A stretch of 35,514 bases of DNA from a virus (lineage: Duplodnaviria > Heunggongvirae > Uroviricota > Caudoviricetes), in IMG/VR virus record IMGVR_UViG_2698536443_000010, positions 1-35,514 of that record. The stretch is one strand, 5' to 3'. Shown one piece after another: positions 1-35,128 of the stretch. Position numbers and translations under genes: made by a program. The first letter of the stretch is position 1. Every line of letters begins with the position of its first letter. The notes below the pieces were generated by a model. The model worked only from the letters and a program-made list of their open reading frames with translations. It had not been told where the DNA came from and ran no database searches.

Positions 1-65
1 CCTCCGGCAGAAGCAGAAAAAGCTTATTATGCTTCCATCGGAAACGATGATCTGGCAGCCTGAGT

Positions 66-458
66 TCACAGATAAAACACTCTCCAGGAAACCCGGGGCG
101 GTTCACACTTCGTATTATCATCAACCTTGTCAAACCGCCGATTCATCTCATCCATAATCTTGTCAAAGCGTTTATCCATCGCTTCGGTAAGCTCACCCTT
201 CAGGCTGTTAATGTCTGATTTGAGCTGCTCTTTCAGGTTAGCTGTATCAGATTTAAGCTCACCTTTCAGATTCGCAATATCGCATTCAAGATCACCTTTC
301 AGATGTGCTATGTCTGCTTTGAGTTCACCTTTCACCTCACCAACATCGGCTTTAGTTGAGAGGTTTGTAGTGCGTTCAGCAAGCGTCGCAAGGTCGTTTC
401 TTGTTAGCGATAAATCACCTTCGAGCCGCTCAATTCGCCTTTCAAGTTTATCTGACAT
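66..458 (-). CDS. Hypothetical coiled-coil protein with five 11-residue repeats (LKGELKxDIAx-type); start chosen at ATG 458 with GGAGG RBS, ORF extends in frame to 575
   Basis: ORF track 66..575; GGAGG 5-6 nt upstream of ATG at 458; 5 x 33-bp tandem DNA repeats at 190..354 encode the repeats. No recognised homologue. Confidence 0.5.
   Translation of the reverse strand: MSDKLERRIERLEGDLSLTRNDLATLAERTTNLSTKADVGEVKGELKADIAHLKGDLECDIANLKGELKSDTANLKEQLKSDINSLKGELTEAMDKRFDKIMDEMNRRFDKVDDNTKCEPPRVSWRVFYL
190..354. repeat. Five imperfect 33-bp tandem repeats (coding, within the coiled-coil gene)
   Basis: Units begin agctcaccc / agctgctct / agctcacct / agatcacct / agttcacct, each followed by ttca(g/c). 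Confidence 0.8.
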
Positions 459-558
459 TCCGCCTCCACTACTGCCGCCATCGCCACCATGATAAAGCAC
501 ATCACGCTCAGAATGCGACACACTACCTGCTGAATTACCGAAAAGATTTCTTGCTACA

Positions 559-1059
559 TTACCCATTATCACCATCCTGCGCTTTGTCTTTCTCCAACCA
601 CTTCAGCACCGCAGACGTACGATAAAGGCTCAGGTAACCACAATTCAGGCAATGCAGCGTGTAATAAGTTTTGCGCATATCAGGTATGCTCTTAACATCA
701 CCCAAAAAAGCATAAGATACATAATGCTTTATGTTCTCTTTAATTAACTCACTCTGCTCCTCCAGGGGTAGATTGTTAAAATTTTCTGGTTTCTTATTTT
801 TATCCCAGCAAAGATCCATACTTTCTGGAACAGATAATCGCGACGATCCACATGAAGGGCAGACACTGGAGACCCCCTTCTCAGACAAGAAACGGAAGAA
901 GATTTCTGGCGTAATCTCCATCAGCCGCTCTTTATGTTTTTTGACACGACTCATCGACTTCTTATTGATTTCATCAGCTTCTTCTTTGCATTTATCTTCT
1001 ATATATTTCGATAGTAAATAGTCATATAACTCTTTTTTTGTAGGTTTTTTTATTTCCAT
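559..1059 (-). CDS. Hypothetical protein with two CxxC pairs (CPSC ... CLNC), putative zinc ribbon; AT-rich moron
   Basis: 166-aa ORF; start 2 nt downstream of the int stop codon; strongly AT-rich, Lys/Glu-rich N-terminus. Confidence 0.5.
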   Translation of the reverse strand: MEIKKPTKKELYDYLLSKYIEDKCKEEADEINKKSMSRVKKHKERLMEITPEIFFRFLSEKGVSSVCPSCGSSRLSVPESMDLCWDKNKKPENFNNLPLEEQSELIKENIKHYVSYAFLGDVKSIPDMRKTYYTLHCLNCGYLSLYRTSAVLKWLEKDKAQDGDNG

Positions 1060-1061
1060 AG

Positions 1062-2039
1062 TTACATTCCTCCCAAGGGATTAAACCTCACCGCATCCTG
1101 CAAGTAATCCGGCGCAAGATGGGCATAAATCATCGTTGTCTGAATCTTTGCGTGCCCCAGAATTTTCTGGAGCGTCAGAATATTGCCGCCGTTCATCATG
1201 AAATGACTGGCGAAGGTGTGGCGCAGCGCATGAACAGCCTGGCCGTCAGGAACATCAGGTGCGACCGTTTTGATGACATCGCGAACCAATGAATAATCCA
1301 GCGTCGGAAACACCAGTTTCCCGCCCCGTTTTTTGATCTTTTCAAACAGGCTTTCAGAAATAGGAACGGTACGGTTTTTGCTGTTCTTCGTTTTTGAAAA
1401 AGTGATTCGACAATGAAGAACACGGCGCTGCTCCAGTGCCGCTACCTCGCCCCATCGCGCCCCGGTCGACAGAAGGATTTCGACGGCCAGCCGTTCATCG
1501 GGATTTTCAGCCAGTGCATCCAGCAACTGAACACATTCAGACTTACTCAGATATCCCATTTCACGCTCGTTAACCTTCATTCCTTTAAGGCCTTGAACGG
1601 GGTTATCGTTAAGAAAATGGCCGGATGAGATGAGTGCGGTAAACATCGCGCTTAACGCCCCAATCTCTCGATTTATGGTGCTGGGCTGTATCCCCTGCTC
1701 TATCCTGGACACACGTAGCTCGGTGAGCATCGTTGTATTAAGTTTATGCACGCACGGGTCATCCATTGCCTCACTCAAGCGCAGCAATTTAAGGCGCGTG
1801 TTATGCCCTGACTTCATTAGCTGGCCGTGGTATTTCCACCACAAGTCAATAAGCACTGACAGCGGACGGCGATCAATGGAGTTTCCTTTCCACTCATTGT
1901 TATGCTGTTGCGCCAGCACCCACCGCTCATATAAAACTGCATCCGATTTCGTTTTAAATTTTTTGCGAATGCGTTTGCCTTTACGCCCCTCAGGACGCAT
2001 GTCAAGAAGATACCCTCCCGGAATTGATTTTATGCTCAT
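1062..2039 (-). CDS. int: Tyrosine integrase, P2 Int-like
   Basis: Resembles P2 Int from MSIKSI...RPEGRKGKRIRKKF; C-terminal HALRHTFASHFMMNGG...ILGHAKIQTTMIYAHL catalytic region. Start at internal ATG 2039 by homology; ORF extends to 2189. Confidence 0.9.
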   Translation of the reverse strand: MSIKSIPGGYLLDMRPEGRKGKRIRKKFKTKSDAVLYERWVLAQQHNNEWKGNSIDRRPLSVLIDLWWKYHGQLMKSGHNTRLKLLRLSEAMDDPCVHKLNTTMLTELRVSRIEQGIQPSTINREIGALSAMFTALISSGHFLNDNPVQGLKGMKVNEREMGYLSKSECVQLLDALAENPDERLAVEILLSTGARWGEVAALEQRRVLHCRITFSKTKNSKNRTVPISESLFEKIKKRGGKLVFPTLDYSLVRDVIKTVAPDVPDGQAVHALRHTFASHFMMNGGNILTLQKILGHAKIQTTMIYAHLAPDYLQDAVRFNPLGGM

Positions 2040-2088: not shown

Positions 2089-2400
2089 TTAGCCGGGCTG
2101 TGTGCCAGTCTTGCGGGATTTTTGAGAAGACGATGTGTTTTCTGGCCCATCAGGGGAGAGAGAAGGACTGATCTGCCCAGCAGCCTCATTTGTTTCGTTA
2201 CTCATCAACCACGTAGTGTATTTTTTAAATTCCGGGTGCATTGTGATTTTCAGTAAAACCTCCGTTCCCACACCTCGAATACCAGTCTCGTATTGCTTAA
2301 CCGTACCAACCGCAATACCTATTGAATCCGCGAACTTTGCCTGACTAAGCCCCTCAGATTCTCGAATTGCTTTTAGCTTCTTTGATATCTCTATTGACAT
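2089..2400 (-). CDS. C: Immunity repressor, P2 C-like
   Basis: MSIEISKKLKAIRESEGLSQAKFADSIGIAVGTVKQYETG (HTH) and FKKYTTWLMSNETNEAAGQISPSL resemble P2 C; AGGTG RBS before ATG 2400; divergent from rightward early genes. Confidence 0.8.
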   Translation of the reverse strand: MSIEISKKLKAIRESEGLSQAKFADSIGIAVGTVKQYETGIRGVGTEVLLKITMHPEFKKYTTWLMSNETNEAAGQISPSLSPDGPENTSSSQKSRKTGTQPG

Positions 2401-7733: not shown

Positions 7734-8693
7734 ATGAAAATTTGTATCGACGACGGCTCCACCAACATCAAGCTGGCATGGACTGAGAACGGCGAACGCC
7801 GCAACGCCATCAGCCCGAACAGCTTCAAGTCGGAATGGTCTGCGCCGTTCGGTGGCACGCAGCCCGCGAACTACATGCTTGATGGCGTGCGCTATGGTTT
7901 TGATCCGGTCAGCGATCGCTTTGTCCAGACGACCGACACGCAATACCAATACAGCGATGTGAATGTCATTGCCATTCATCACGCGCTGGTCAAATCAGGC
8001 ATCACACCACAGGAGGTGGATGTGGTTGTCACCCTGCCACTGAGCGAGTATTTCGACACAAACGCACAGCCGGACATGGCCAACATCAACCGCAAAAAAG
8101 CGAACGTTATGCGCCCGGTGGAGTACCAGAACGGCGAAGCATTCACTATCCGTAACGTGCGGGTTATGCCTGAATCCATTCCGGCTGGCTTTAAGGCACT
8201 GGCTGACATGAGTCCGTTTGAATCCCTGCTGATTGTGGATTTGGGCGGAACCACGCTGGATGTGGCAAAGGTTCAGGGGCAACTGGCAGGTATCAGCCAG
8301 GTGTTTTGCGATCCACACGTAGGCGTTTCTCTGATGGCCGATGCCGTACTGGCGGTGATGGCCACTAACGGTATGCGCACCAGTCACCACATCGCCAATA
8401 CCATTATCGAACATCGCCATGATGAAGCCTGGCTGCGCCAGCACATCCACAATGACGCGCATTACGCCAGCCTGATGGCGGTTATTCGTGAAAAGGAAGA
8501 AACACTGAAACAACGCGTGATCCGCGCGCTGGCGGTTTTTTCGGGTTACGGGCGGGTGATGGTTGTCGGTGGAGGGGCGGAGATTGTGGCACCCGCTATC
8601 CGCGAAGCCTGCGGAGTTAATGCGACTTTCATCGCGGACGGGGTGCCACAGTTTGCTCTGGTTAATGGGCTGTACGCAATGGACAAGGAGTAA
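7734..8693 (+). CDS. parM: Actin-like segregation ATPase, ParM/StbA family
   Basis: MKICIDDGSTNIKLAW...YSDVNVIAIHHAL...VMPESIPAG...LLIVDLGGTTLDV...VMVVGGGAEI matches conserved ParM blocks of plasmid R1 as recalled. Confidence 0.85.
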   Translation: MKICIDDGSTNIKLAWTENGERRNAISPNSFKSEWSAPFGGTQPANYMLDGVRYGFDPVSDRFVQTTDTQYQYSDVNVIAIHHALVKSGITPQEVDVVVTLPLSEYFDTNAQPDMANINRKKANVMRPVEYQNGEAFTIRNVRVMPESIPAGFKALADMSPFESLLIVDLGGTTLDVAKVQGQLAGISQVFCDPHVGVSLMADAVLAVMATNGMRTSHHIANTIIEHRHDEAWLRQHIHNDAHYASLMAVIREKEETLKQRVIRALAVFSGYGRVMVVGGGAEIVAPAIREACGVNATFIADGVPQFALVNGLYAMDKE

Positions 8694-8697
8694 ACCA

Positions 8698-9009
8698 ATG
8701 ACGACACCAACCAGACGGATAAGTTTCTATCTGAAGCCTGCGGCCGTCAAGAACGAAAGCGAAGCATGCGCCTGGCTGGACAGCCTTACACCAGAAGCCC
8801 GCAAAAGCGGCCAACGCGTGGCTTTTCTGGCCGGGCTGGCACTTCTGAAAATGAATCCAGCAGAGGCTTACCGACTGGCTGCATGGGCTGACGATGAGGC
8901 GTTATCAGTGACACAAACCAGGACAGAATGCCCCGCGTCACAGCCAGTATCAACCGCACAGATAACCAGTCAGATGGCCGGAAATATCCGGGCATTATTT
9001 CCCGAATAA
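8698..9009 (+). CDS. parR: ParR-like adaptor candidate
   Basis: Immediately downstream of parM with AAGGAG RBS; RRISFYLKP...AGLALL...RALFPE resembles R1 ParR as recalled. Confidence 0.55.
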   Translation: MTTPTRRISFYLKPAAVKNESEACAWLDSLTPEARKSGQRVAFLAGLALLKMNPAEAYRLAAWADDEALSVTQTRTECPASQPVSTAQITSQMAGNIRALFPE

Positions 9010-31688: not shown

Positions 31689-32324
31689 TTAGCGAGCTAA
31701 TATATTCAAAGAATTTAACAATTGAGTGTCGAGTGTTTCAGTTGCAGGAATCGGTAATCCATTCGCAATGCGGTAATTTTTCACAGACAGCCTTGTGGAT
31801 GGCCCCATTATGCCGTCAATATTTCCGTTATAAAATCCCCTGTCCAGCAATGCGAACTGAACTCGCATAATCAATCGCTTACGTTTCTCTGCATCAGAAG
31901 CAAGCCCATTACTCGTACGGTTAACCTCTGAAGTTCCAACAGAACTCGTGTTAGTGGTTCTATTATTATCGTTAGAACGAAGTGCACGCACCGAGGAAGA
32001 GGACGATGAGGAACTTGCACCTGAACTTGAAGAACCAGATGAACGTGGTGAGCTGTATGTTTTTGGATAATAGGGGGTACTTCCACCATAGTATCCACCA
32101 CCTGATGAGGATCTATGAGAGCTATGGCTCCTATGAGAGCTATGGCTTCGATGCCCTGCGATATAAAATGGGACTTCCGTGTTAAGTGGAGCTATCACTA
32201 AATCATGCTCATTAAGAGTCATACCAGGTAAATCACTCGCTCCTGTAGATGAATCGCTTGCCCATACAGAATTGTTGAGAGCCAAAAATCCCGGAAGTAG
32301 AGCAGCAAAATTAAACTTTTTCAT
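31689..32324 (-). CDS. hxsA: His-Xaa-Ser repeat protein (HxsA-like): signal peptide, HRS/HSS repeat tract, Ser/Gly-rich linker, peptidoglycan-binding-like C-terminal domain
   Basis: MKKFNFAALLPGFLALNNSVWA signal peptide; HRSHSSHRSHSSHRS; C-terminal LIMRVQFALLDRGFYNGNIDGIMGPSTRLSVKNYRIANGLP; ATGA overlap with upstream radical-SAM gene. Confidence 0.7.
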   Translation of the reverse strand: MKKFNFAALLPGFLALNNSVWASDSSTGASDLPGMTLNEHDLVIAPLNTEVPFYIAGHRSHSSHRSHSSHRSSSGGGYYGGSTPYYPKTYSSPRSSGSSSSGASSSSSSSSVRALRSNDNNRTTNTSSVGTSEVNRTSNGLASDAEKRKRLIMRVQFALLDRGFYNGNIDGIMGPSTRLSVKNYRIANGLPIPATETLDTQLLNSLNILAR

Positions 32325-33433
32325 AAAATTGGTCTCGGTGATTGATGAAAACGGCCTTTTGAGGAACTGAAATAGCCAGCACAGGAAGGCTTCTGAGTAC
32401 ATTCATCACATTCTTTTGGATAGTAATTTTTCCAATCAGAGATCGACTGAACAGCAAGCTCCCTAGCCCTTTCAGGAAGATAACACAAAGGATAATTAAA
32501 AATTGTCAGAGGTATGCCTGACCTGTATGCAGCGTCTATGGCAGAGATTATTTTCTCACTATAACTACTGTGATCAATGAAGATGGTGGACCAGTTTTTT
32601 CGTGCCCAACCGATAGGCTCCAACCCCATAAGGGAAATCTGATTGATGTTGGAGAACACACGGCCAGCGAATTCTACAATATCATCCAATTCGGTATAGT
32701 TAGCCAGTGTAGGAATAACTCTAAGTTCGATATTAATCCCCAAGTTTCCTGCATTGATTAACCCTTTAACCGTTTCATTAAATGCGCCATCACTCCCTAC
32801 CAGATGATCATGCACAAGTGGTCTTGATGAGTAGAGCGGGATACCAAAGGTGATTTTGATCTTTTTGCTTCGCTTTGCCATTTCCTGTGTAAAGTTGATA
32901 TCAGCAAATTTGCGTCCGTTTGTTAAAACATGTAAAGCAGTATCTGGTGAATTCTCGATGATAAAATCAATGAAGTGAAGGAAGTCATCCCCATATAGCA
33001 AAGGTTCACCACCGCTGACCCCAACAACTCCGTTCAAGCCAAATGAAGCTATAGCAAGAGCTGATTGGGTAAGTAGCCAGTCATCATTTATTTTCTTTGG
33101 TGGCTGCGAACAAAACAGACACAAGTTATTGCAGCGTTCCGTAACTAAGACAGTATTATGATTGGCTTTGCGTGACAGAATAACGCGTATCATATTGCCA
33201 TTGTTGATTATCCCAATATCTCCATCTTCAATTGACTCAAATAATTCAGTGCTAATAACAGAGAAATCAAAGCATGGTGGAATGGCATCATTATTGCCTT
33301 CAGCAACTACTAGCAAATTGGGCAAAAAGAATAAAGGGTTCACTGGTTTTTGTTTGCATAACCGATAGAACCCCGTGGGCACGTTCTCTGTAGAAGCAAA
33401 ATGAAAGATATCGTTCCTGATAACCTCAGACAT
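32321..33433 (-). CDS. hxsB: Radical SAM enzyme with SPASM-like C-terminus (HxsB-like maturase; B/C assignment tentative)
   Basis: CNNLCLFC (CX3CX2C), GGEPLL motif, C-terminal Cys cluster CDECTQKPSCAGYF. Confidence 0.75.
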   Translation of the reverse strand: MSEVIRNDIFHFASTENVPTGFYRLCKQKPVNPLFFLPNLLVVAEGNNDAIPPCFDFSVISTELFESIEDGDIGIINNGNMIRVILSRKANHNTVLVTERCNNLCLFCSQPPKKINDDWLLTQSALAIASFGLNGVVGVSGGEPLLYGDDFLHFIDFIIENSPDTALHVLTNGRKFADINFTQEMAKRSKKIKITFGIPLYSSRPLVHDHLVGSDGAFNETVKGLINAGNLGINIELRVIPTLANYTELDDIVEFAGRVFSNINQISLMGLEPIGWARKNWSTIFIDHSSYSEKIISAIDAAYRSGIPLTIFNYPLCYLPERARELAVQSISDWKNYYPKECDECTQKPSCAGYFSSSKGRFHQSPRPIL

Positions 33434-34814
33434 ATGCCCATCCTTTTAGCATCTCAGCCTTCGAACCACCCTCTGAGATGCAGTTCATCAGATACCTGAA
33501 CATCCCCTTGTGATATTGACAAAACGTTGAACGACTCCTATCACCGACAGGCTCACCCTGTACACTTATGTTCTGGCATGGATCTGAACCACAAAATGGT
33601 TGATATGCACATGTATCACAACCTGGCAGAGCAAAATTGAACGATGAACTCAATACTGCGTTATAGTAAGGACTATCAGAAAATGATAGCGTCTTAACTT
33701 CACCCGCACTGAACTCCGTTTCAGGATTCACCTTCTGCAACATACGGCTCTCATCGCTACCATATACTCGACCGTCATAATTGAAAAGAATACTGTTAAG
33801 CACGACTCCACTTGGAGACTTTAAATCCGCATAACCACTAAAACCGGGATTGAAGATCCTTTTCAGATGAATGGAGGCCGAATGTTCCACAACCCTTATC
33901 CCTTCATTATTAATCTTAAGGATTTCATCTATCAACGAGGCATAGAAGCTGAAGTATTCGTCCATAGAAAAGGTGAAAGAAGCTTTTTGTGCAAACCCAT
34001 AGGGACTAACAGGTCGGATAAACATGTCCTTGAGACCAAGAGACAAGTGAGCCTGAACAATCGATTCAGGACGTTTGATAAGCTCTTTAGTAACTGTAGT
34101 AACCGTTGCAACGCGGCCAGCACCTAAAGAGTGTTTGATAGCCTCTACCCCTGACACTGTTCTACTGTACGCAAGCCCACGACCAAGAATTCGATTACTG
34201 TTGTGAACAACTTCCTCACCATCAAGCGACACAGAGAACGTTATGTTCCGGTCTCTCGACCATTCAATCATATCCTCATTCAAGACGGACAGACTTGATG
34301 CCACCACCATCTCAAAATTGGTTCTTCCCAGCGTTTCAGCACATTGATCATAGATGCTCTGAATTAAATCAAACCGCAAGAGAGGCTCCCCACCCTGTAT
34401 CTCTATTTTGTAAGGTGGCGTTGATAGTTTTTTAATAGCCGAAATAATATCGGGGATGAGCTCAGGATTTAGGTCGTAACCTGAGGCATTAACAGAAGCT
34501 CTACTAACCTGGCAATACTTGCATGTATGGTCACAACGTAATGTGGGTACAATCATGAAAATTGGCCTGACAGCCAGTTCATTCATCAATCGTTTTGCAA
34601 AAGCAGAACTTAAAGCATAGGGAGTTATAGCAGATGAGCTTTCACTGGTTATGAAAAGCTTACTTTCTAGCACGTTTGATTGCTCCGAACTAATTCGCTC
34701 ATCAGAAAGATCAATAAGGTCTTGCTCACCAATGAAATGATGAAAACCTGCAAGGTTGCTTATAAACACCTGTCCATTAGGCAATCTGTCAAAATTAAAT
34801 GGCATCAATTCCAT
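33426..34814 (-). CDS. hxsC: Radical SAM enzyme with SPASM-like C-terminus (HxsC-like maturase; B/C assignment tentative)
   Basis: CDHTCKYC (CX3CX2C), GGEPLL motif, C-terminal CDTCAYQPFCGSDPC. Confidence 0.75.
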   Translation of the reverse strand: MELMPFNFDRLPNGQVFISNLAGFHHFIGEQDLIDLSDERISSEQSNVLESKLFITSESSSAITPYALSSAFAKRLMNELAVRPIFMIVPTLRCDHTCKYCQVSRASVNASGYDLNPELIPDIISAIKKLSTPPYKIEIQGGEPLLRFDLIQSIYDQCAETLGRTNFEMVVASSLSVLNEDMIEWSRDRNITFSVSLDGEEVVHNSNRILGRGLAYSRTVSGVEAIKHSLGAGRVATVTTVTKELIKRPESIVQAHLSLGLKDMFIRPVSPYGFAQKASFTFSMDEYFSFYASLIDEILKINNEGIRVVEHSASIHLKRIFNPGFSGYADLKSPSGVVLNSILFNYDGRVYGSDESRMLQKVNPETEFSAGEVKTLSFSDSPYYNAVLSSSFNFALPGCDTCAYQPFCGSDPCQNISVQGEPVGDRSRSTFCQYHKGMFRYLMNCISEGGSKAEMLKGWAYV

Positions 34815-35128
34815 TATGAAAGCCTCTCATCAACACTGCGAAGCACTTTATGGACAATAGAGTCTCTCAACGCCCCTGTTTTATGCTGTAGCTTTTCTCG
34901 CAAAGAGTAATCATTAAGCAGCCTATCGAATTCATAAAGGAATTTGGGATTATCGTTTTCAAAAGAGATTATCCAGTGGGAAACGTCTTCATGGAGTTTC
35001 CATCGAGTAAGCGGAGTCATCCAATATAGACTATTGCGTATAACCCATTCAGAATATAGTTCTTTCTCAAACACTCTTTCGCTCATTGCAATTATCTTCC
35101 AATACAAATATTCATGATCAGCAACCAC
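34814..35128 (-). CDS. hxsD: HxsD-like small protein with LLNDYSLRE motif
   Basis: FDRLLNDYSLREKLQ matches the LLNDYxLRE signature; first gene of the operon; start uncertain (GTG 35128 or ATG 35086). Confidence 0.65.
   Translation of the reverse strand: MVADHEYLYWKIIAMSERVFEKELYSEWVIRNSLYWMTPLTRWKLHEDVSHWIISFENDNPKFLYEFDRLLNDYSLREKLQHKTGALRDSIVHKVLRSVDERLS

What the first reader, a model, noticed from the sequence alone, without database searches (positions are those of the whole stretch)
66..1059. Uncharacterised two-gene module translationally coupled downstream of integrase
A 166-aa AT-rich protein with two CxxC pairs (putative zinc ribbon) starts 2 nt after the int stop. It is followed by a coiled-coil protein built from 11-residue repeats with a strong GGAGG RBS. 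Both lie between int and the expected attL, a classic moron position, and I recognise neither as a known family. A small nucleic-acid-binding protein plus a repeat or coiled-coil partner is a pattern seen in several anti-phage or exclusion systems, but this is speculative.
Basis: inference. Interest (0 to 1): 0.65.

Follow-up and report, generated by a model that had tools for sequence, protein, structure and literature searches.

The report
Conserved prophage zinc-ribbon/membrane-stalk gene pair
Downstream of the integrase of a P2-like prophage sits a two-gene cassette of unknown function (a small zinc-ribbon protein plus a membrane-anchored coiled-coil protein) that recurs as a strict pair in the lysogeny-control regions of several unrelated temperate phage groups, making it a good untested candidate for a phage-exclusion system, although in this window an IS629 insertion has cut off the second gene's membrane anchor.

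Summary
The two ORFs are real and form a conserved cassette. Gene A (559-1059, minus strand, 166 aa) is an AT-rich C4 zinc-ribbon protein that starts 2 nt after the int stop. It has no curated family, no PADLOC match and no structural relative. Gene B is a DUF1640/XhlA-like protein: a disordered N-terminus, a Gly-run, a coiled coil with a beta-layer motif and hendecad repeats, and a C-terminal membrane anchor.

The finding needs three corrections:
- Window 1-105 is the end of IS629. It replaces B's last 28 residues, the anchor, so the stop at 66 is IS-derived.
- B's frame opens at A's stop (575/566). The "GGAGG RBS" lies inside a conserved Gly-run before a conserved internal Met.
- B belongs, at borderline score, to a named family.

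A is followed directly by B in all about 17 lineages inspected. These include P2-like (C-int-A-B-att), 186-like (cI...A-B-int), lambdoid (cI-A-B, the rexAB/bstA slot) and SPN3UB-like siphoviruses. Related prophages with the same int carry a different gene in this slot.

The function is untested. The best guess (about 0.45) is a lysogen-expressed exclusion or abortive-infection module acting at the membrane.

The parts
1..105 (+). Right end of IS629 (IS3 family): the last 20 codons of the transposase plus its stop (1-63), and the terminal inverted repeat (66-105). The insertion junction is at 105/106, inside gene B.
   Evidence: Positions 1-116 are 96-98% identical to IS629/IS1203 ends in Stx phages, including the annotated 'inverted repeat from right end of IS629'. 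Thousands of copies occur in E. coli genomes, while the prophage match starts at 106. The translation reads PPAEAEKAYYASIGNDDLAA*.
66..575 (-). Gene B as it stands in this window (169 codons). It is a truncated DUF1640/XhlA-like coiled-coil protein. Residues 1-156 are native. The last 13 residues (CEPPRVSWRVFYL) and the stop come from IS629.
   Evidence: ORF list. Comparison with the intact 184/145-aa protein of L001 shows an identical prefix of 156 aa and loss of WRWSGIIVPVCTTIFTAAVAVFVAKFVG. The best 19-residue hydropathy falls from 2.43 to 0.70.
106..575 (-). Native part of gene B. It comprises an N-terminal disordered extension (575-459), a Gly-run, a coiled coil with the beta-layer motif LSTKAD, hendecad repeats, and the conserved ...DDNTK just before the lost anchor.
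   Evidence: 100% identical to E. coli O26 RM8426 from position 106. Family alignment A3. AF2 monomer model: residues 1-35 below pLDDT 50, helices at 38-69 and 73-147, a break at the STK motif, and a TM helix at 150-180 in the intact protein.
456..467 (-). Conserved internal Met codon (458-456), preceded by GGAGG (467-463) that is built from Gly codons. This is the PGAP-annotated start and a possible second translation start.
   Evidence: Every one of 11 lineages keeps a GGAGG/GGGGA-type core 4-10 nt before a conserved Met at the start of the coiled coil. PGAP starts the gene here, whereas the gene calls in other collections start at the overlap with gene A.
230..334 (.). 33-nt tandem repeat that encodes the 11-residue (hendecad) repeats of gene B.
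   Evidence: TRF reports period 33, 3.2 copies and 75% matches. The copy number varies among close relatives, which are 112/123/134/145/156 aa long.
559..1059 (-). Gene A: a 166-aa cytoplasmic C4 zinc-ribbon protein of an uncharacterised family (PHROG 4293). Cys codons: C67 861-859, C70 852-850, C137 651-649, C140 642-640.
   Evidence: ORF. phrog_4293 at E 8e-23, function unknown. Nothing above threshold in Pfam, NCBIfam, PADLOC or PDB sequences. Invariant Cys and W154. AF2 model with pLDDT 82 and no structural neighbour.
1062..2039 (-). P2-type tyrosine integrase. The annotated start is at 2039; the ORF is open to 2189. The Shine-Dalgarno sequence of gene A (1074-1069) lies in its 3' end.
   Evidence: Pfam Int_N and Phage_integrase. 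PGAP coordinates were transferred from L001.
2089..2400 (-). P2 C-type repressor (HTH). It is the first gene of the leftward lysogeny operon C-int-A-B.
   Evidence: Pfam HTH_3 and phrog_147. Annotation of L001. No convincing terminator was predicted between C and the end of gene B. A strong terminator (GGCCGCTCTGCGGCC followed by a T-run) lies about 110 nt after gene B in the intact relative.

Best explanation
Genes A and B form a mobile two-gene accessory cassette of temperate phages that is expressed with the lysogeny genes.

Shown:
- A is a soluble C4 zinc-ribbon protein.
- B is a tail-anchored inner-membrane protein. Its cytoplasmic part consists of a disordered N-terminal peptide, a Gly-rich linker and a DUF1640/XhlA-type coiled-coil stalk of variable length.
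- The two genes are always adjacent and translationally coupled.
- The cassette sits in the repressor/integrase operon or in an immunity-type accessory region of four different temperate phage groups.
- It occupies a slot where cargo is exchanged.

Inferred: the cassette most likely protects the lysogen against other phages, in the manner of lambda RexAB. The cytoplasmic zinc-ribbon protein would act as sensor or regulator, bound to the stalk or N-terminal peptide of B. The membrane-anchored B oligomer would act at the inner membrane, by blocking DNA entry, collapsing membrane potential, or mistiming the invader's holin (XhlA is a holin partner).

In this window the cassette is probably inactive, because IS629 has removed B's membrane anchor.
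For: - Strict pairing. B follows A directly, overlapping or abutting it, in every lineage inspected.
- Position in lysogeny-control regions. P2-like C-int-A-B-att. 186-like cI-x-x-A-B-int. Lambdoid cI-A-B, which is the slot of rexAB and bstA (PMC8585504; lambda map). SPN3UB: beside arc/ant and two exported or lipoprotein morons.
- Cargo behaviour. A is 38.7% GC. The same A-B pair is found in only 23 of 300 genomes that carry this int. In 4 of 4 inspected int-only records a 131-aa gene fills the slot, with exact boundaries at the int stop and the att arm.
- The int-att region of P2 is reported as a minor defence hotspot (PMC13586616).
- Signs of rapid diversification in B: hendecad copy number from 1 to 7, two alternative anchor modules, and hypervariable N-termini.
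- Membrane anchor and stalk. Beta-layer motif of DUF1640 (PMC4786415). XhlA and CCDC90 HMM hits in family members.
- No terminator between C and B, and a strong terminator after B.
Against: - No phenotype exists for any member, and no paper describes the pair.
- Neither protein matches a PADLOC model beyond coiled-coil noise, and neither is related to RexA or RexB.
- Position in a lysogeny operon is also compatible with regulators, addiction modules or host-fitness genes.
- The only characterised relative of B, XhlA, acts in the phage's own lysis (PMC5589764).
- The loci inspected are a small, non-random sample.
- Expression in lysogens is inferred from operon structure and has not been observed.
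Confidence: 0.45

Rival explanations
1. The pair serves the phage's own life cycle. B would be an XhlA-like accessory or regulator of the phage's holin, or a membrane scaffold for injection or replication. A would be its zinc-dependent regulator, for example tuning lysis timing or the lysis-lysogeny decision.
For: Three of 11 B-family members hit Pfam XhlA (best E 4e-7), and one was pre-annotated XhlA. XhlA is needed together with the holin XhlB and the endolysin for PBSX lysis (PMC5589764). The conserved internal SD and Met in B recall the dual-start holin/antiholin arrangement. In SPN3UB-like phages and in L015 the pair lies within the structural or late half of the genome, near the tape-measure gene.
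Against: No holin or endolysin is adjacent in any locus. In P2-like phages the lysis genes lie in the late operon, far away. The pair is dispensable: most prophages with the same int lack it. It is transcribed in the direction of the repressor and int genes, not of the late genes.
Confidence: 0.2
2. The pair is a toxin-antitoxin-like addiction module. B would be a small membrane toxin and A, upstream and translationally coupled, its antitoxin. The module would stabilise the prophage and might double as an abortive-infection switch.
For: The gene order is antitoxin-first, with overlapping stop and start. B is a small single-pass membrane protein. IS elements have disrupted the cassette in three lineages: window (IS629 in B), L041 (rve-family IS in B) and L030 (IS upstream, with A cut). 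One locus lies next to HigBA-type genes.
Against: B is much larger than classical membrane toxins and is mostly a long cytoplasmic stalk. There is no homology to known TA families. The IS hits occur in IS-rich genomes and may be chance.
Confidence: 0.15
3. The pair is a lysogenic-conversion factor for host physiology, such as envelope or stress tolerance or a membrane scaffold like the mitochondrial MCUR1/CCDC90B. It would have no role in phage-phage conflict.
For: The distant family relationship of B to CCDC90/MCUR1 scaffolds. In SPN3UB it lies beside exported or lipoprotein morons.
Against: The similarity to CCDC90 is below the Pfam threshold and is largely coiled coil. The rapid repeat-number and module variation in B fits conflict better than housekeeping.
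Confidence: 0.08
4. The ORFs are decaying or spurious reading frames with no function.
For: In this window gene B is broken by IS629.
Against: Gene A has 91 representative clusters with four invariant Cys. The pair is kept intact, with conserved motifs and coupling, across hosts from Escherichia to Providencia and in isolated phages.
Confidence: 0.02

Closest known systems
Lambda RexA/RexB (abortive infection, cI-rexA-rexB operon)
   Same: Both are two-gene cassettes co-oriented with the prophage repressor. In lambdoid relatives A-B directly follows cI, exactly where rexAB lies. Both combine one soluble protein with one inner-membrane protein.
   Different: There is no sequence relationship: hhalign probabilities are below 1%. 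RexB is a polytopic channel-like protein, whereas B has a single C-terminal anchor and a long coiled-coil stalk. RexA has no zinc ribbon. Function is untested here.
XhlA of Bacillus subtilis PBSX (Pfam PF10779)
   Same: Both are small phage proteins with an N-terminal coiled coil and a C-terminal membrane helix. Some B-family members hit the XhlA HMM.
   Different: XhlA sits in a lysis cassette with a holin and an endolysin and is required for lysis (PMC5589764). Here no lysis genes are adjacent, the partner is a zinc-ribbon protein, and the context is lysogeny control. The window protein itself does not hit PF10779.
DUF1640 / CCDC90-like family (PF07798; MCUR1, CCDC90B; prokaryotic membrane proteins with a beta-layer stalk)
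   Same: The beta-layer motif [aliphatic]-[AS]-T-K-x-[DE] sits at the start of the stalk, there is a C-terminal membrane anchor, and the stalk is a coiled coil (PMC4786415). NCBI names the protein DUF1640/CCDC90.
   Different: The Pfam score is 23.6-24.1 bits against a cut-off of 33.5. The phage proteins add a disordered N-terminal peptide and a Gly-run. The function of the eukaryotic members (a mitochondrial scaffold) gives no direct lead.
Other cargo of prophage lysogeny or immunity regions: BstA, and P22 SieA next to immI
   Same: They sit in the same kind of slot, downstream of the repressor or beside arc/ant, that houses prophage defence or exclusion genes (PMC8585504; PMC10883804, listed).
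   Different: There is no homology, and BstA and SieA are single proteins. That SieA lies next to immI in P22, and that it is a polytopic membrane protein, comes from my own knowledge and was not checked here.

Membership tests
DUF1640 / CCDC90-like (PF07798) | Pfam HMM score at or above the gathering threshold (33.5 bits) | tested here: not met
   The window protein scores 23.6 bits (E 5e-5) and the intact L001 protein 24.1 bits. Some close homologues carry precomputed PF07798 hits, and the best E among family members is 2.8e-7. Membership is therefore borderline.
DUF1640 / CCDC90-like (PF07798) | Beta-layer motif [aliphatic]-A-T-K-[polar]-[DE] at the start of the stalk (Hartmann et al. 2016) | tested here: met
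   LSTKAD in the window protein; FATKSD, YASKED, FSTKSD, YATRED and others in all aligned relatives. The AF2 helix breaks exactly there. The motif definition comes from PMC4786415.
DUF1640 / CCDC90-like (PF07798) | Integral membrane protein with a C-terminal transmembrane anchor | tested here: inconclusive
   Met in intact relatives (hydropathy 2.43 over residues 162-180 of L001). Not met in the window copy, where IS629 replaces the anchor.
XhlA (PF10779) | HMM match | tested here: not met
   No PF10779 hit for the window or L001 protein. Three of 11 family members match (best E 4.2e-7). The link is at superfamily level only.
XhlA (PF10779) | Encoded in a lysis cassette next to a holin and an endolysin | tested here: not met
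   No holin or endolysin is adjacent to A-B in any of the inspected loci.
RexAB-type abortive infection | Sequence or profile homology to RexA and RexB | tested here: not met
   hhalign of A2 against RexA gives probability 0.7%. A3 against RexB gives 0.04%.
RexAB-type abortive infection | Two genes co-transcribed with the prophage repressor: one soluble protein and one membrane protein | tested here: met
   cI-A-B in lambdoid loci L032 and L033. C-int-A-B here, with no terminator before the end of B. A is soluble and B is membrane-anchored. Co-transcription itself is inferred.
RexAB-type abortive infection | Exclusion or abortive-infection phenotype with membrane depolarisation | not testable with these tools
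   This needs phage challenge and membrane-potential assays.
Known anti-phage defence systems (PADLOC-DB 2.0.0) | Match of either protein to a defence-system HMM | tested here: not met
   For A the only hit is DUF3800_VII at E 0.005 and 14 bits. For B there are only coiled-coil-region hits to LmuB, ZorA and LeoBC (E at or above 3e-5, 21 bits or less).
Zinc ribbon (C4) | Two CxxC knuckles on beta-hairpins, with the Cys residues invariant | tested here: met
   C67, C70, C137 and C140 are invariant in 21 sequences. In the AF2 model they sit at hairpin turns, beside strands 79-83 and 131-147. There are weak hits to Zn_ribbon_13, CpXC and TFIIB ribbons. Metal binding itself was not tested.
Ogr/Delta zinc-finger late activators of P2/P4 | PF04606 match and the C-X2-C-X22-C-X4-C spacing | tested here: not met
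   No PF04606 hit. The spacing here is CxxC-66-CxxC. A separate ogr gene is annotated at the far end of a related prophage (E. coli 01_3327), just beyond the part of that prophage that the window covers.

The most novel reading that the evidence does not exclude
A-B is a previously unrecognised class of prophage immunity cassette, shared by P2-like, 186-like, lambdoid and SPN3UB-like temperate phages. A zinc-ribbon sensor would control a tail-anchored, length-variable DUF1640/XhlA-type stalk protein, possibly made as two isoforms from a conserved internal start. That protein would then abort or exclude superinfecting phages at the inner membrane. If true, this would give the first function for bacterial DUF1640-like proteins and for PHROG 4293.
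Probability: 0.35. Interest if true: 0.72.

Novelty: new variant of a known kind. Interest (0 to 1): 0.55.

Why it matters
Slots next to prophage repressors and integrases have repeatedly yielded new anti-phage systems, such as RexAB, BstA and the P2/P4 hotspots. This pair has no characterised member, is absent from the 2023 PADLOC models, and yet is kept as a strict unit in the lysogeny-control regions of at least four temperate phage groups of Enterobacterales.

Testing it is cheap: two small genes and natural variants already exist, including this window's anchor-less allele as a ready-made negative control. A positive result would assign a function to two unknown families and to the bacterial branch of the DUF1640/XhlA superfamily. 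If it instead turned out to act in lysis or lysogeny control, that would still explain a recurrent feature of these phage genomes.

Tried and rejected
- Gene A against the phage collection by tblastn: no match. A lambdoid-type homologue (P0142) likewise gave none. Only the 186-type homologue P0081 reached isolated phages.
- The search for related loci with the broad alignment A2 failed because it had no conserved 7-10-mer. With A1 it returned almost only near-identical loci.
- Profile search against PDB sequences found nothing. NCBIfam found nothing.
- Literature searches on DUF1640, XhlA, tail-anchored exclusion proteins, P2 hotspots and the protein accession numbers found no description of the pair.
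- Considered and rejected: an Ogr/Delta-type activator (no PF04606 hit and wrong Cys spacing); an integrase accessory or recombination directionality factor (in lambdoid and SPN3UB contexts the pair is not next to any int); spanin or apolipoprotein hits for B (coiled-coil noise).
- The AF2 monomer model of B is low confidence (pLDDT 60) and was used only for secondary-structure boundaries.

Full report
**What is in the window**

The window is a P2-like prophage. Reading leftwards on the minus strand it carries:
- a C-type repressor at 2089-2400;
- a tyrosine integrase at 1062-2039;
- the two ORFs of the finding.

Rightwards it carries cox-like genes and a 940-aa gpA replication endonuclease.

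Gene A (559-1059, 166 aa) starts 2 nt after the int stop, and a GGGAGG lies in the 3' end of int. Gene B is the ORF 66-575.

**The left edge is an IS629 insertion**

Positions 1-105 are the right end of IS629, consisting of transposase C-terminal codons and the terminal inverted repeat. All complete E. coli genomes that carry the cassette match only from position 106.

In the 100%-identical relative, E. coli O26 RM8426 (L001), gene B continues for 28 more residues: WRWSGIIVPVCTTIFTAAVAVFVAKFVG. This is the protein's only hydrophobic helix. In the window these residues are replaced by 13 IS-derived residues and a stop codon. The end coordinate in the finding is therefore an artefact of the insertion, and the window's allele lacks its membrane anchor.

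In intact relatives the prophage lies between ihfA and btuC. About 190 nt separate gene B from btuC. This stretch holds a strong terminator and repeated TGTGGTCA/TGTGGATCA motifs that abut the stop of B.

**Gene A**

Four Cys (C67, C70, C137, C140) and W154 are invariant across 21 homologues that go down to 20% identity.

The family is small:
- 18 clusters in the indexed search, all from Enterobacterales and all named 'hypothetical';
- 91 representatives among 1.84 billion proteins in the exhaustive profile search.

It corresponds to PHROG 4293, function unknown. Nothing reaches threshold in Pfam, NCBIfam, PADLOC or PDB sequences. The recurrent weak hits are to generic zinc ribbons.

The AF2 model (pLDDT 82) shows, in order:
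- a long N-terminal helix, which is absent from the shorter homologues;
- a short helix carrying the conserved motif ITPELFxxFLxxKG;
- a zinc ribbon whose two knuckles are separated by a helix-plus-strand insertion;
- a C-terminal helix ending in an acidic tail.

No structural neighbour was found.

**Gene B**

NCBI annotates the intact protein as DUF1640/CCDC90. The Pfam score is below the cut-off, at about 24 bits against 33.5. Other members of the same partner family hit either CCDC90-like or XhlA, so the family sits between these two models.

It carries the beta-layer motif that Hartmann et al. described for DUF1640 ([aliphatic]-A-T-K-[polar]-[DE]; here LSTKAD). The AF2 helix breaks exactly at that motif.

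The 11-residue repeats are real. They form a 33-nt tandem array at 230-334. Their number varies from about 1 to 7 among close relatives, which gives proteins of 112, 123, 134, 145 and 156 aa. Two alternative C-terminal anchor modules also occur.

**Where gene B starts**

PGAP starts the gene at the Met behind the GGAGG (window 458). However, in 11 of 11 diverged lineages the frame is open for 26-43 more codons, back to a start codon that overlaps or abuts the stop of gene A. Per-lineage shuffles give a probability of 0.035-0.17 for no stop by chance. The product is about 1e-11 if the lineages are treated as independent.

The extension contains a loosely conserved [PNQ]-L-[FV]-x-[DG] peptide and a Gly-run (GGxGGGGDxM).

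The Gly-run contains a GGAGG- or GGGGA-like core 4-10 nt before a conserved Met in every lineage. The long form is therefore very probably translated. An additional internal start, which would give a shorter isoform, is possible but unproven.

**Conservation of the pair**

In every lineage I inspected, A is followed at once by a B-type gene.
- P2-like, order C-int-A-B-att: the window type; a second E. coli type with a 54%-identical A; Salmonella; a Klebsiella element; three further lineages.
- 186-like prophage: cI, a 135-aa gene, a Flk_N-like tail-anchored protein, then A-B-int.
- Two lambdoid lineages: cI-A-B, with kilR/ydaE or recET further on.
- Salmonella phage SPN3UB, a Klebsiella phage and a metagenomic contig: A-B lies in an accessory cluster beside arc/ant and two exported or lipoprotein genes, upstream of the tape-measure gene.
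- Providencia: A-B plus two unknown genes, next to ogr.
- One locus beside HigBA-like genes, with B cut by an IS.
- One locus with an IS upstream and A cut.

The link to int is therefore not essential. The common denominator is a lysogeny-control or immunity-type accessory region.

**Cargo behaviour**

Gene A is 38.7% GC in a 51.9% GC window. Of 300 E. coli genomes with this int, 23 carry this A-B and some carry the diverged variant. All four 'int-only' records I opened carry an unrelated 131-aa gene instead. Homology breaks about 16 nt inside the int 3' end on one side, and exactly at the cargo stop next to the att arm on the other.

A 2026 survey lists the int-att interval as a minor defence hotspot of P2-like phages, holding 3% of their systems (PMC13586616). 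The slot downstream of cI in lambdoid phages is the home of rexAB and bstA (PMC8585504).

**Interpretation**

Shown: a conserved, exchangeable, translationally coupled cassette that encodes a soluble zinc-ribbon protein and a tail-anchored coiled-coil membrane protein, placed where lysogen-expressed genes sit.

Inferred: it is co-transcribed with the repressor, and it acts against superinfecting phages at the membrane, in the manner of RexAB (sensor plus membrane effector). I give this about 0.45.

There is no homology to RexA or RexB or to any PADLOC model. No paper describes the pair.

Rivals:
- a role in the phage's own lysis or lysogeny control, suggested by the XhlA link and the possible dual start (0.2);
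- a toxin-antitoxin-like addiction module (0.15);
- a host-physiology factor (0.08);
- junk (0.02).

In this window the cassette is probably non-functional, or altered, because B cannot insert into the membrane.

**Verdict**

The cassette is an uncharacterised but clearly real and recurrent unit, and a good experimental candidate. Its function remains unproven.

Noticed in passing
window 1-105: The right end of IS629 is inserted inside gene B, immediately after the conserved ...DDNTK and before the W of the TKW motif. It removes the membrane anchor. The rest of the IS and the other junction lie outside the window, so the target-site duplication could not be checked.
   Followed up: yes
window 230-334, and homologues P0025, P0033, P0038, P0041, P0043, P0044, P0054: The copy number of the 11-residue repeat KGELKxDIAxL varies from about 1 to 7 among close relatives. 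Protein lengths step by 11 aa (112, 123, 134, 145, 156), so the stalk length is polymorphic.
   Followed up: partly
window 456-575, and 10 related loci: B's frame is open from A's stop in all lineages. In addition, a Shine-Dalgarno-like core made of Gly codons precedes a conserved internal Met. Two isoforms, long and short, may be produced. Annotation pipelines disagree on the start.
   Followed up: partly
L012 5431-6063: The B homologue of a 186-like prophage contains six tandem 9-residue repeats (ATKADLQ[NS][FT]). These are repeated beta-layer motifs of the kind that form alpha/beta coiled-coil fibres in Hartmann et al. 2016.
   Followed up: no
L035 2082-2477 (also L036, L037, L038): Most prophages with the same int and the same btuC attachment site carry an unrelated 131-aa gene (WP_000416308/304) in the int-att slot instead of A-B. 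It has no Pfam or NCBIfam match.
   Followed up: partly
L041 5371-5598; L030 2497-5375: Two other lineages also have IS elements disrupting the cassette: B is cut by an rve-family IS in L041, and in L030 IS elements lie upstream with gene A truncated. This could be chance in IS-rich genomes, or it could reflect a cost of the cassette.
   Followed up: no
window 7734-9009: The classical P2 defence hotspot between gpA and the portal gene holds a ParM-like segregation ATPase (319 aa) and a 'plasmid partitioning/stability family' gene rather than a recognised defence system.
   Followed up: partly
window 31689-35128: A His-Xaa-Ser system (hxsA, hxsC, hxsB, hxsD, including two radical-SAM maturases) lies just after gpD on the minus strand, at 41.7% GC. 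In a relative that matches this stretch at 100%, ogr follows, so the system lies between gpD and ogr inside the prophage. It is a second AT-rich cargo of unknown role.
   Followed up: partly
L001 3792-3806 and 3890-3915: A strong intrinsic terminator (GGCCGCTCTGCGGCC followed by a T-run) lies about 110 nt after gene B. Direct repeats TGTGGTCA...TGTGGATCA abut B's stop codon and may be Int arm-type sites. The cargo therefore lies between int and the att arm.
   Followed up: partly
L012 4285-4896: In the 186-like locus a second tail-anchored protein (Flk_N domain with a C-terminal hydrophobic helix) lies immediately upstream of A-B in the same lysogeny operon.
   Followed up: no
L045 4199-4862 (Salmonella phage SPN3UB gp26, gp27): Directly after A-B come two small genes, one with a signal peptide and one with a lipoprotein signal. 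These are typical exported morons and sit between A-B and the tape-measure gene.
   Followed up: no
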